Shown piece after piece: positions 17,801-20,800 of a DNA stretch of 64,000 nucleotides. A program made the position numbers. The first letter of the stretch is position 1, and the number at the start of each line of letters is the position of its first letter. The stretch comes from Escherichia coli (GTDB taxonomy: Bacteria > Pseudomonadota > Gammaproteobacteria > Enterobacterales > Enterobacteriaceae), in NCBI RefSeq assembly GCF_003334765.1, contig NZ_QOWT01000018.1; one strand, given 5' to 3'.

Positions 17801-20800
17801 AATGAATCAGGAATATCGGCAGCATATGGCACAACGAAGATCTATACTACAGATACTAGAGCAAGATGGCTACATGGTGGGGGATCATCGTTGCGCGATC
17901 CTTATGCTCCTCGACAAGGCTGGAAACCAACTATGGGATGTACCCGTGCACAGAATGAAGATGTAGATGAGTTGTGTAAGAAAGTGACAAGTTGGATGTA
18001 TTCGCATCCTGGAGAGAGAATTAGATATGAACGTTTTAAGACACGTTAATGCGATTAACATGGGAGTGTGCATTCTAATTTGGGTTATTGGATGTGCAAA
18101 TGCTAAAGTTCTTAAACGATGTATATTACCCGCTCCTGATGGTGGCGTAGAAAAACTATCAAAACCCAACTTACATGGAGTAATTAAAAAAGTTGATTTG
18201 AACACAAATGAAGCGGAAATTAAAATAAAAGAGGGGGGGGCAGTGAGTTTTATTTTTAATGAGGAAACATTGTATTTTACTGTTTTTGGTGGGGATTTTA
18301 TTATGGATGATTTAAAAAAAGTAAAAAATACGGAAGCATGGGTATGGTATAAAAATTGCGATAGTAAAAATAAAAATGTGGCAGTTGAACTTCTTCAAAT
18401 CTACGAATTGCATCAATGAAAAATATAGTTAAATAGAGGAGGTTATTAATAGCAGGAAAAGCATCACGTGATGCTGATTTTTTGCACTAAATAATTCGCG
18501 CTAATGTTCAATAGTTAATATATCCCTCATCAGGGAAAGATCACCGGTGTGCCGTAGGCACAAAGATGCAAAACGGGACGTTTTGCATGTAATAAGCATA
18601 AGCTTGTGAAGAGATGGTGGCAGGCCCACCGGGATCTGCTGTCGGAAGTCGGTCCCAAACAACCCCGGCTGCTGTGGTAAAGAGCCATGGTAGTGAGCGC
18701 AGGGGCAGGGAAAGATCACGTAACGCTGATTTTTTGTACTAAATAATTCGCATTTTATGTTTAAAAATTGAGATATTCCTCATTACCTGAAGCTGTTTTT
18801 TATTGCTTATACATGATCAAATACTCCTTACATAATTAAGGAGAACAAAATGGAACTTAAAAAATTGATGGAACATATTTCTATTATCCCCGATTACAGA
18901 CAAGCCTGGAAAGTGGAACATAAATTGTCAGATATTCTACTGTTGACTATTTGTGCCGTTATTTCTGGTGCAGAAGGCTGGGAAGATATAGAGGATTTTG
19001 GGGAAACACATCTCGATTTTTTAAAACAATATGGTGATTTTGAAAATGGTATTCCTGTTCACGATACCATCGCCAGAGTTGTATCCTGTATCAGTCCTTC
19101 AAAATTTCACGAGTGCTTTATTAACTGGATGCGAGATTGCCATACTTCAGATGATAAAGACGTCATCGCAATTGATGGAAAAACACTCCGGCATTCTTAT
19201 GACAAGAGTCGCCGCAAGGGAGCGATTCATGTCATTAGTGCGTTCTCTACAATGCACAGTCTGGTCATCGGACAGATCAGGACGGATGAGAAATCCAATG
19301 AGATTACAGCTATCCCTGAACTTCTTAACATGCTGGATATTAAAGGAAAAATCATCACAACTGATGCGATGGGTTGCCAGAAAGATATTGCAGAGAAGAT
19401 ACAAAAACAGGGAGGTGATTATTTATTCGCGGTAAAAGGAAACCAGGGGCGGCTAAATAAAGCCTTTGAGGAAAAATTTCCGCTGAAAGAATTAAATAAT
19501 CCAGCGCATGACAGTTACGCAATGAGTGAAAAGAGTCACGGCAGAGAAGAAATCCGTCTTCATATTGTTTGCGATGTCCCTGATGAACTTATTGATTTCA
19601 CGTTTGAATGGAAAGGACTGAAGAAATTATGCGTGGCAGTCTCCTTTCGGTCAATAATAGCAGAACAAAAGAAAGAGCCAGAAATGACGGTCAGATATTA
19701 TATCAGTTCTGCTGATTTAACCGCAGAGAAGTTCGCCACAGCAATCCGAAACCACTGGCACGTGGAGAATAAGCTGCACAGGCGTCTGGACGTGGTAATG
19801 AATGAAGACGACTACAAAATAAGAAGAGGAAACGCAGCAGAATTATTTTCAGGGATACGGCACATTGCTATTAATATTTTGACGAATGAGAAGGTATTCA
19901 AGGCAGGGTTAAGACGTAAGATGCGAAAAGCAGCCATGGACAGAAACTACCTGGCGTCAGTCCTTGCGGGGAGCGGGCTTTCGTAGTAATACCCCGACTC
20001 TCCCCGTCCTTAAACACAACCCCCACTCACCACAACCTAAACTCATCCGCATCCTGCCATGCCGGAAACTTTTCTCTATATTCCCGCAATGCTGCCATCG
20101 ACAGCTCCGCATCAATGCGCGTTGCCTGATGCGCGTCGGCAGTAGCGATAATCTCTCCTTGCGGATTAATCACCCGGCTGTCACCGCGATAATGGCAGCC
20201 GTTGCCATCGCTGCCGACGCGATTGCATCCCGCCACATACGCCTGATTCTCAATCGCGCGGGCCGTCAGCAATGCCTGCCAGTGCAGAGAGCGCGGAGCA
20301 GGCCAGTTGGCGACGTACAGGGCGAGGTCATAATCGTTGAGATTGCGCGACCACACAGGAAAACGTAAGTCGTAGCACACCAGCGGCAAAATACGCCAGC
20401 CGCGCCATTCCACAATCACTCGCGCATTGCCCGCTTTATAATGTAGATGCTCATCTGCCATGCGGAACAGATGACGCTTATCATAAAAATGTACCGTGCC
20501 GCCCGGCTCAACCAGCAAAAAGCGGTTAACCGAACCAGACTCCGTTTGTAATGCAACACTGCCTGCAATCAGCGCATTGCACTGCTGCGCCTTAGCTGTC
20601 ATCCAGTTCACTACGTCATCTTGTGCTAGCGACGAAGCTGCCGCTTCCATGGCAAAGCCGCTGGTAAACATCTCCGGTAGAACGATCACATCGCGCCCGG
20701 TAATACCTTCCAGTTGACGATCAAAATGACGCAGGTTGGCAGGACCATCCATCCACACCAGTGGTTGCTGCAAAAGCGTAATCTTCAAACCAGGCACGGT

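What the first reader, a model, noticed from the sequence alone, without database searches (positions are those of the whole stretch)
18451..18790. Duplicated ~80-bp unit with a 161-bp GC-rich hairpin-bearing insert between the Rhs immunity gene and the ISAs1 transposase
The sequence right after the immunity ORF (18451-18544) recurs at 18706-18790 (shared core atcacgtNaNgctgattttttgYactaaataattcgc). An identical 14-mer cagggaaagatcac ends copy 1 and starts copy 2, so the 161 bp between them (18545-18705) looks like a discrete insertion or the residue of a deleted module. The insert is GC-rich within an AT-rich context and contains a perfect hairpin (atgcaaaac-gggac-gttttgcat) and further stems (gtgccgtaggcac). 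It could be a small RNA, a miniature mobile element, or a scar from loss of an orphan toxin/immunity cassette.
Basis: seen in the sequence. Interest (0 to 1): 0.5.

Follow-up and report, generated by a model that had tools for sequence, protein, structure and literature searches.

The report
Dead group II intron stub beside IS
The GC-rich "insert" is the first 159 bases of a known mobile group II intron (E.c.I9) that once homed into the left end of an Rhs-associated insertion sequence, and the "duplicated unit" is a stack of three such IS left ends; this is an already catalogued, almost certainly inert relic.

Summary
A 37-nt core (18463-18499 / 18715-18751, 92%) and an exact 14-mer (18531, 18706) flank a 161-bp GC-rich piece. 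The piece is not an sRNA gene, a MITE or a toxin/immunity scar. Bases 18547-18705 are nt 1-159 of the class D group II intron E.c.I9. They match the reference intron of E. coli ATCC 8739 at 157/159 positions. They are base-for-base identical to the fragment published as "E.c.I9-tr2, 159 bp, in another Rhs region" for BL21/REL606 (Leclercq & Cordaux 2012, PMC3522654). E.c.I9 homes between nt 15 and 16 of the left end of the Rhs-associated ISAs1-family element (H-rpt/ISEc1). The 14-mer plus CG (18531-18546) is therefore the intron's 5' exon, a stub of one H-rpt. Copy 1 (18452-18530) is a 79-nt stub of an older, degenerate H-rpt. Copy 2 starts the complete 1291-bp H-rpt (18706-19996). The fragment lacks EBS1, domains V/VI and the reverse transcriptase, so it cannot splice or move. 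How the stack formed (nested insertions followed by collapse) is inferred. One side observation: H-rpt left ends lie just after CAGG-like motifs more often than expected. Already known, low interest.

The parts
18452..18530 (+). Copy 1: truncated left end (nt 1-79) of an old, degenerate Rhs-associated ISAs1-family element (H-rpt). Its tip reads AGCAGGAAAAGCATCACG where the consensus is CAGGGAAAGATCACG.
   Evidence: It aligns to H-rpt left ends from nine other loci and the homology breaks after ...CCTCAT. The same variant tip is continuous with a whole IS in L004 and L009.
18460..18484 (+). Palindrome AGCATCACGTGATGCT followed by a T-run, inside copy 1. It looks like an intrinsic terminator and lies just downstream of the immunity-like ORF.
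   Evidence: Terminator-like site found. This is a consensus match only; function was not tested.
18531..18546 (+). 16-nt stub (CAGGGAAAGATCACCG) of a second H-rpt left end. It is the 5' exon (IBS1 region) of the intron.
   Evidence: Full-length introns in L008 and ATCC 8739 are preceded by CAGGGAAAGATCACG / CAGGGGAAGATCACG. EBS1 CGTGAT in the intron pairs with exon ATCACG.
18547..18705 (+). E.c.I9-tr2: nt 1-159 of the class D group II intron E.c.I9 (the start of domain I), beginning GTGTG.
   Evidence: Identical to NC_012892:242507-242665, the published fragment. It matches E.c.I9 of ATCC 8739 at 157/159 and the L008 intron at 158/159.
18616..18736 (+). Rfam RF01999 (group-II-D1D4-2) match. 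Model positions 1-91 lie in the intron fragment. The last model hairpin is supplied by the IS left end.
   Evidence: 81.8 bits against a gathering score of 36, E=4e-16 to 7e-17.
18706..19996 (+). Complete-length H-rpt / ISEc1-type ISAs1-family insertion sequence, 1291 bp.
   Evidence: Most E. coli genomes match only from 18706. Left ends aligned and right ends.
18706..18730 (+). Unoccupied E.c.I9 homing site, CAGGGAAAGATCACG^TAACGCTG (insertion point between 18720 and 18721).
   Evidence: Exon junctions of the full-length introns in L008, L012 and L026.
18850..19986 (+). ISAs1-family transposase ORF, 378 aa and uninterrupted. It reads LHRRLD where other copies have LHWRLD.
   Evidence: NCBIfam NF033564, 407 bits. 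Translation.
19987..19996 (+). Degenerate right terminal repeat TAATACCCCG (consensus TCTTGCCCTG). It is shared with the same-locus alleles L004 and L150, so it is inherited from the old resident H-rpt.

Best explanation
SHOWN. Bases 18547-18705 are the first 159 nt (the start of ribozyme domain I) of the bacterial class D group II intron E.c.I9. This is a retroelement whose homing site lies between nt 15 and 16 of the left end of the Rhs-associated ISAs1-family insertion sequence (H-rpt, ISEc1 group). The 16 nt before the fragment (18531-18546) are the 5' exon, which is the tip of the H-rpt that the intron invaded. The 79 nt before that (copy 1) are the truncated left end of an older, degenerate H-rpt resident at this rhs-yafV locus. 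The sequence after the fragment (from 18706) is a third, full-length H-rpt. The 'duplicated unit' is therefore three stacked IS left ends, and the 'insert' is a truncated intron between the second and the third. The fragment has no EBS1 (nt ~266), no domains V/VI and no reverse transcriptase/maturase gene. It cannot splice, reverse-splice or retrohome. INFERRED. An intron-bearing H-rpt inserted at nt 79 of the resident H-rpt. A further H-rpt then landed in the intron right after its internal CAGGGG (nt 154-159), a motif resembling the IS's own tip. The intervening intron 3' part and the redundant IS bodies were then lost. That loss occurred either by homologous recombination between the directly repeated IS copies or by IS-mediated adjacent deletion. 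The result is one chimeric IS that keeps the old element's degenerate right end. The relic most likely has no function today. The remaining direct repeats make the region deletion-prone, which fits the insert-free allele seen in some strains.
For: 1. Rfam RF01999 gives a full-length match of 81.8 bits (gathering score 36) at 18616-18736.
2. The fragment is colinear with full-length introns that carry ltrA and a domain V/VI match (RF00029): L007, L008 and ATCC 8739. Identity is 158/159 to L008 and 157/159 to ATCC 8739.
3. It is exactly identical to the published coordinates NC_012892:242507-242665. [quoted passage not shown] Their text says E.c.I2 and E.c.I9 target the Rhs IS (=ISEc1-5) at two different positions.
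4. The homing site is confirmed by exon junctions in L008, L012 and L026. It is also confirmed by EBS1/IBS1 co-variation at the same aligned position: CGTGAT with ATCACG in the E.c.I9 type, CGTCCAG with CTGGACG in the E.c.I2 type.
5. The domain I helices are kept through compensatory changes across E.c.I9, E.c.I2 and RmInt1-type introns (11 of 48 pairs).
6. Copy 1 aligns to H-rpt left-end nt 1-79.
7. The parts travel independently. L004 and L009 have copy 1's tip without the intron. L001, L002, L003, L068 and L008 have the intron with other upstream sequences and other truncation points, about 69, 95-97, 193 nt and full length.
8. Evidence for the formation model: L150, at the same locus, still shows one H-rpt nested in the remains of another that carries the same degenerate right end. 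Stacked left-end stubs recur elsewhere in L001, L003, L008 and L018. CAGG lies within 9 nt upstream of the left tip in 10 of 52 distinct flanks, against 9 of 260 control windows, p=2e-4.
Against: 1. The predicted intermediate (an IS right end abutting intron nt 160 onward) was not found in any of 5,426 complete E. coli genomes.
2. No crossover point could be resolved inside the window's IS, because the copies are homogenised and this one carries many private substitutions. The order and mechanism of the rearrangements therefore remain inference.
3. The 5' exon stub is one base longer (ATCACCG) than in the full-length copies (ATCACG).
4. The Rfam model is matched end to end across the intron/IS junction, because the IS tip mimics the intron's next hairpin. 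That could hint at retention of a fold, although it is more likely coincidence.
5. Lack of function is assumed. No expression data could be consulted.
Confidence: 0.9

Rival explanations
1. The relic has been exapted. The intron domain I fragment together with the IS left-end hairpin forms a structured RNA. Such an RNA could serve as a 5' leader affecting transposase expression, or as a decoy or binding site for the maturase of resident E.c.I2/E.c.I9 introns. On this reading the region is kept for that reason.
For: The stretch folds more stably than shuffles (z=-2.6). The Rfam model is matched over its full length because the IS tip substitutes for the missing intron hairpin. The arrangement is present in about 870 of 5,426 genomes.
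Against: Its frequency is explained by vertical inheritance of a neutral scar. Other loci keep quite different lengths of the intron, about 69, 95-97 and 193 nt, so no particular fold is conserved. An insert-free allele exists at the same locus in about 137 genomes. A terminator-like site lies upstream (18460-18484) and the only promoter-like site for the transposase lies downstream (18808-18836), so no obvious transcription unit covers the fragment. In the distantly related class D intron RmInt1, the maturase is reported to bind mainly domain IVa, which is absent here (general knowledge, not tested).
Confidence: 0.04
2. The 161 bp is an autonomous small mobile element (a MITE-like or miniature insertion), and the 14-bp direct repeats are its target-site duplication.
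For: Identical 14-mers flank it exactly. It also occurs at several loci.
Against: No terminal inverted repeats were found. The '14-bp duplication' is the invariant tip of the H-rpt IS at every locus, not a locus-specific target. The piece has different 3' end points at different loci. It is colinear with the 5' end of a 1.9-kb intron.
Confidence: 0.01
3. The insert is a scar of a lost orphan Rhs toxin/immunity module or another coding remnant.
For: Its position is immediately downstream of an Rhs C-terminal tip and a small immunity-like ORF. Short ORFs exist on the minus strand, for example 18501-18719 (72 aa).
Against: The 72-aa ORF has no NCBIfam match. The whole piece is accounted for, base by base, by the intron.
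Confidence: 0.01
4. The components are the same, but the origin is different. Instead of nested insertions plus homologous collapse, a single downstream H-rpt produced each junction by intramolecular (adjacent-deletion) transposition into upstream DNA. Alternatively, the junctions arose by illegitimate recombination at CAGG-like microhomology.
For: Every junction is a perfect, complete IS left tip abutting truncated upstream DNA. In L150 the left flank of the nested IS is not the older IS but an unrelated gene fragment, as expected after an adjacent deletion. CAGG-like motifs are enriched at the junction. The nested intermediate was not found.
Against: The transposition chemistry of the ISAs1 family is not characterised, so the plausibility of adjacent deletions is unknown. 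A pure microhomology crossover would leave one CAGGG, whereas the window has CAGGGG followed by CAGGGA.
Confidence: 0.35

Closest known systems
E.c.I9 group II intron (bacterial class D), specifically the catalogued fragment E.c.I9-tr2 of E. coli B strains (Leclercq & Cordaux 2012, PMC3522654, Tables S2/S3)
   Same: The sequence is identical to the published BL21 coordinates and has the same 159-bp length. It sits in the same Rhs/yafV context and is 98-99% identical to nt 1-159 of the full-length E.c.I9 of ATCC 8739.
   Different: Nothing differs in the fragment itself. The paper does not describe the stacked IS left ends around it, and the window's strain has an uninterrupted 1359-aa Rhs ORF upstream where BL21 has an IS1.
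E.c.I9-1/tr1, the 193-bp fragment (full-length in ATCC 8739) at the RhsE-ydcC locus
   Same: It is the same intron with the same homing position in an H-rpt left end. It is also followed by a complete H-rpt left end (L001, L008, L012).
   Different: It lies at a different chromosomal locus and has a different truncation point (nt 193 rather than 159), so it is an independent truncation.
E.c.I2 group II intron (class D), homing into the ISAs1/H-rpt transposase gene
   Same: It is a related class D intron, about 80% identical in domain I with the same helices, and it also parasitises H-rpt elements (L007, 1891 nt).
   Different: Its homing site is inside the transposase ORF (after ...CTGGACG) rather than in the IS left end, and its EBS1 differs accordingly.
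RmInt1 of Sinorhizobium meliloti (class D / IIB3), homing into ISRm2011-2
   Same: It belongs to the same intron class, is about 79% identical over the domain I core, shares the helices with compensatory changes, and has the same habit of homing into an insertion sequence (the IS target is from general knowledge).
   Different: It has a different host lineage and a different IS target, and the copies there are full-length and active.
H-rpt / ISEc1 (ISAs1 family) elements of Rhs loci, including the tandem defective H-rpts described for E. coli K-12 Rhs elements (Zhao et al. 1993, J Bacteriol; recalled from memory, not read here)
   Same: Copy 1, the 16-nt stub and copy 2 are all left ends of this IS. 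The position downstream of the Rhs tip and immunity gene is the classical one.
   Different: Here two of the three copies are reduced to stubs of 79 and 16 nt, and an intron relic is trapped between them.

Membership tests
Bacterial group II intron (class D, E.c.I9) | 5' end consensus GUGYG | tested here: met
   GTGTG at 18547-18551. The same start is seen in L001, L002, L003, L007, L008, L012 and L013.
Bacterial group II intron (class D, E.c.I9) | Domain I sequence and structure matching a curated covariance model above its gathering score | tested here: met
   RF01999 at 81.8 bits against 36. The helices are supported by 11 compensatory pairs across three intron lineages.
Bacterial group II intron (class D, E.c.I9) | Colinear near-identity with the named reference intron | tested here: met
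   157/159 to E.c.I9 of ATCC 8739, and identical to the published E.c.I9-tr2 coordinates.
Bacterial group II intron (class D, E.c.I9) | Catalytic domains V/VI (needed for a functional intron) | tested here: not met
   RF00029 does not match anywhere in the window, although it is found in L007 and L008. This is a truncated relic, not a functional member.
Bacterial group II intron (class D, E.c.I9) | Intron-encoded reverse transcriptase/maturase ORF in domain IV | tested here: not met
   The fragment ends at nt 159 and abuts the IS directly. ltrA is present only in the full-length relatives.
Bacterial group II intron (class D, E.c.I9) | EBS1-IBS1 pairing with the 5' exon | tested here: inconclusive
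   In the full-length relatives, EBS1 (nt ~266) pairs with the IS-tip exon and co-varies. The window fragment stops before EBS1, so only the IBS side (ATCACCG, one extra base) is present.
ISAs1-family insertion sequence (H-rpt / ISEc1) | ISAs1-type DDE transposase | tested here: met
   NF033564 at 407 bits, 378-aa uninterrupted ORF.
ISAs1-family insertion sequence (H-rpt / ISEc1) | Characteristic length and terminal inverted repeats | tested here: inconclusive
   The length is 1291 bp and the left tip is the consensus CAGGGAAAGATCA. The right tip is degenerate (TAATACCCCG against TCTTGCCCTG), so mobility is doubtful.
ISAs1-family insertion sequence (H-rpt / ISEc1) | Copy 1 and the 14-mer are homologous to the IS left end | tested here: met
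   Alignment with nine left ends. The same tip is seen in 52 distinct contexts.
Small regulatory RNA gene / riboswitch | Match to a curated RNA family other than an intron, or its own promoter and terminator | tested here: not met
   Above threshold there is only the intron model. No promoter-like site lies upstream of the fragment, and the terminator-like site is upstream of it rather than downstream. Expression cannot be tested with these tools.
MITE / miniature transposable element | Terminal inverted repeats and a locus-specific target-site duplication | tested here: not met
   No inverted repeat at the ends of the insert. The flanking 14-mers are IS tips present at all loci.

The most novel reading that the evidence does not exclude
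The Rhs-associated ISAs1 element (H-rpt) may insert preferentially right next to sequences that resemble its own left tip (CAGGG...), including the tips of resident copies. That would be end-targeted insertion of the kind known for IS30 and IS911, and to my knowledge it has not been described for the ISAs1 family. It would explain the stacked left-end stubs, and it would explain why the intron was cut exactly after its internal CAGGGG. A much less likely reading is that the intron relic plus the IS tip has been retained as a structured leader or maturase decoy.
Probability: 0.3. Interest if true: 0.3.

Novelty: already known. Interest (0 to 1): 0.13.

Why it matters
For annotation, this small unannotated gap between the Rhs immunity gene and the ISAs1 transposase can be labelled precisely: two IS left-end stubs plus the E.c.I9-tr2 intron fragment. 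That is better than flagging it as a candidate RNA gene. RefSeq leaves the stretch unannotated. Biologically it is a small worked example of layered parasitism, a retroelement inside an IS inside an IS at the variable end of an Rhs/T6SS toxin locus. It fits the published picture that group II introns in E. coli are short-lived and leave scattered dead fragments. The only forward-looking element is the hint of a target preference of the H-rpt IS. If real, it would help explain why these elements pile up at the 3' ends of Rhs loci.

Tried and rejected
1. An Rfam scan at permissive E-values found nothing credible other than the intron model. The other hits (TtnuHACA28, MIR2655, SNORD66) had E>2 and are chance.
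2. I first read the insert as two modules, a 5' hairpin part and a D1D4 part, possibly joined by an internal deletion. I rejected this once the full-length introns proved colinear with it.
3. The minus-strand 72-aa ORF (18501-18719) and the immunity-like ORF have no NCBIfam match.
4. Literature searches for 'H-rpt' or 'H-repeat' together with 'group II intron' found nothing usable. Dai & Zimmerly 2002 (PMC1370338, PMC101233) are not held, so the original descriptions of the homing sites could not be read.
5. A search for the predicted nested intermediate (IS right end joined to intron nt 160 onward) found no genome with it.
6. An attempt to locate a recombination crossover inside the window's IS by informative sites gave no clear mosaic.
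7. The plasmid records pC27A-2 and pC27A-3 (L014, L016) looked like divergent copies, but they are riddled with indels and were set aside as poor assemblies.
8. A microhomology crossover between the intron's CAGGGGGAACGATCA and the IS tip was considered for the 18705/18706 junction. I rejected it as the sole mechanism because both CAGGGG and CAGGGA are retained.
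Full report
**Setting.** The finding lies between a 1359-aa Rhs ORF (13970-18049) with its small overlapping immunity-like ORF (18027-18419) and an ISAs1-family transposase gene (18850-19986). yafV follows on the opposite strand. This is the variable 3' end of an Rhs locus next to yafV. The stretch is 100% identical to E. coli B-type and many other strains.

**Observation.** The repeat is real. 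A 37-nt core recurs at 18463-18499 and 18715-18751 (92%). The 14-mer CAGGGAAAGATCAC occurs exactly twice in the 64-kb window, at 18531 and 18706. Copy 1 (18452-18530) aligns with copy 2 (18706-18784) at 59/79, and the homology ends abruptly at ...CCTCAT. The 161 bp in between is 56% G+C, against 29-35% on either side. It contains the quoted hairpins.

**What the insert is.** Rfam gives a full-length match to RF01999 (group-II-D1D4-2) at 18616-18736, at 81.8 bits against a gathering score of 36. Comparison with other E. coli genomes showed that the same piece occurs upstream of H-rpt/ISAs1 elements at other loci. It is always preceded by (C)AGGGAAAGATCA plus 1-3 nt, always begins GTGTG, and ends at different points.

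- Full-length relatives were then found. L007 is a 1891-nt intron with ltrA and a domain V/VI match, inside an ISAs1 transposase gene. L008 is a 1865-nt intron at the RhsE-ydcC locus.
- Window bases 18547-18705 equal nt 1-159 of the L008 intron with one mismatch.
- I fetched those coordinates. They are base-for-base identical to window 18547-18705. The fragment is 157/159 identical to the reference E.c.I9 of ATCC 8739 (NC_010468:2411599-2413485).
- The 193-bp fragment in L001 corresponds to their 'E.c.I9-1/tr1'.
- The class D assignment agrees with about 79% identity of the domain I core to RmInt1-type introns on Sinorhizobium plasmids. It also agrees with shared helices that keep pairing through compensatory changes (11 of 48 pairs).

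**What the repeats are.** The paper states that E.c.I2 and E.c.I9 home into the Rhs IS (ISEc1-5) at two different positions. The exon junctions of full-length copies show that E.c.I9 sits between nt 15 and 16 of the IS left end:

- L008: CAGGGAAAGATCACG | intron | TAACGCTGCTTTTTTGTACTAAAT
- ATCC 8739: CAGGGGAAGATCACG | intron | AGAAGTACAC...
- L026...CTACTCACG | TAACGCTG

EBS1 in the intron co-varies with the exon at the same aligned position. It is CGTGAT with ATCACG in the E.c.I9 type and CGTCCAG with CTGGACG in the E.c.I2 type.

The region therefore resolves into four parts:

- **18531-18546.**
- **18452-18530 (copy 1).** This is nt 1-79 of another H-rpt with a degenerate tip (AGCAGGAAAAGCATCACG). 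The same tip heads an unbroken IS in L004 (same locus, strain ST540) and in L009.
- **18547-18705.** This is the 159-nt intron fragment described above.
- **18706-19996 (begins with copy 2).** This is a full-length 1291-bp H-rpt. Most genomes match the query only from 18706 onward.

The right terminal repeat of this IS is degenerate (TAATACCCCG against the consensus TCTTGCCCTG). It is shared with the same-locus alleles L004 and L150.

**Do the parts travel together?** They do not. Copy 1's tip occurs without the intron (L004, L009). The intron fragment occurs without copy 1 and with other truncation points: about 69 nt in L003, about 95-97 in L002 and L068, 193 in L001, a 5'-truncated piece reaching about nt 400 in L005, and full length in L008 and L012. 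About 870 of 5,426 complete genomes carry the window arrangement, and about 137 carry the insert-free allele at this locus.

**Function.** The fragment lacks EBS1 (nt ~266), domains V/VI and the maturase gene. No RF00029 match exists anywhere in the window. It therefore cannot act as an intron. A terminator-like palindrome plus T-run lies upstream in copy 1, and the only promoter-like site for the transposase lies downstream of the fragment. I conclude, by inference, that it is an inert relic. Expression could not be checked.

**How the arrangement arose (inference).** Every junction is a complete IS left tip abutting truncated upstream DNA.

- L150, at the same locus in another strain, still shows a complete H-rpt followed by an internal piece of an older transposase gene. 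That piece is followed by the same degenerate right end as in the window. New H-rpts therefore do insert into the resident one here.
- Stubs of left ends (5-36 nt) precede complete left ends in several unrelated contexts: L001, L003, L008, L018, L024.
- In 52 distinct left-end flanks gathered from genomes and metagenomes, CAGG lies within the 9 nt upstream of the tip in 10 cases. It does so in 9 of 260 position-shifted control windows (Fisher p=2e-4).
- The intron's own CAGGGG (nt 154-159) is such a site, which would explain the 159-nt cut.
- Loss of the intron's 3' part and of the redundant IS bodies can be explained in two ways: homologous recombination between directly repeated ISs, or IS-mediated adjacent deletion. 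I could not discriminate between them. The predicted nested intermediate was not found, and no crossover is resolvable in the IS.

**Verdict.** The object is already catalogued in the literature. Interest is low. The only new element is the modest statistical hint of end-targeted insertion by the H-rpt IS.

Noticed in passing
window 18700-18745 and intron nt 153-190 (L008:4070-4107): The part of the intron that was lost right after the breakpoint (CAGGGGGAACGATCAGACGAGATCTGATCC) resembles the IS left tip that replaced it (CAGGGAAAGATCACGTAACGCTGATTT). As a result the Rfam model RF01999 is matched end to end across the junction. This is probably coincidence or a target-choice effect.
   Followed up: partly
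52 H-rpt left-end flanks in L001-L150 (e.g. L024, L023, L028, L049, L082, L101): Complete H-rpt left ends often lie immediately after CAGG(G)-like motifs or short stubs of another left tip. This holds for 10 of 52 flanks against 9 of 260 control windows, p=2e-4. It suggests end-targeted insertion or tip duplication by this ISAs1-family element.
   Followed up: partly
window 18233-18240: There is a run of eight G inside the immunity-like ORF (18027-18419). This is a possible slipped-strand frameshift hotspot or a sequencing-error hotspot.
   Followed up: no
window 19780-19830 (transposase codons around LHRRLD) and 19987-19996: The transposase is full-length but reads LHRRLD where other copies have the conserved LHWRLD, at the E.c.I2 homing site. 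The right terminal repeat is also degenerate. This IS copy is probably immobile and no longer a good E.c.I2 target.
   Followed up: partly
L150 (NZ_CP043414.1, same rhs-yafV locus), locus 1780-1980: A complete H-rpt with a consensus right end is followed by a ~60-nt internal piece of an older ISAs1 transposase gene and then the old degenerate right end. This is a preserved nested IS-in-IS state.
   Followed up: partly
window 49135-49334; 24740-24817, 28069-28146, 28811-28888; 1-73, 8003-8076, 42703-42775: Other Rfam matches in the window are IS009 (202 bits), three naRNA4/CssrE repeats and three tRNA genes.
   Followed up: no
L019 (MAG 'Collinsella sp.' contig) and L029 (MAG 'Candidatus Nanosynbacter' contig): Contigs assigned to non-enterobacterial MAGs carry E. 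coli H-rpt sequence. L019 has the exact window arrangement, immunity-like ORF included. These are most likely mis-binned E. coli contigs.
   Followed up: no
L014 and L016 (E. coli plasmids pC27A-2 / pC27A-3, CP044307/CP044308): These 'plasmid' records contain the same stub-intron-IS arrangement but are peppered with single-base indels. They look like uncorrected long-read assemblies of chromosomal DNA.
   Followed up: no
L011 (BL21(DE3) NC_012892.2:241309-242379) versus window 13970-18419: In BL21(DE3) an IS1A lies immediately upstream of the immunity-like ORF, where the window has an uninterrupted 1359-aa Rhs ORF. The window therefore comes from a related strain with an undisrupted Rhs gene at this point, not from BL21 itself.
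   Followed up: partly
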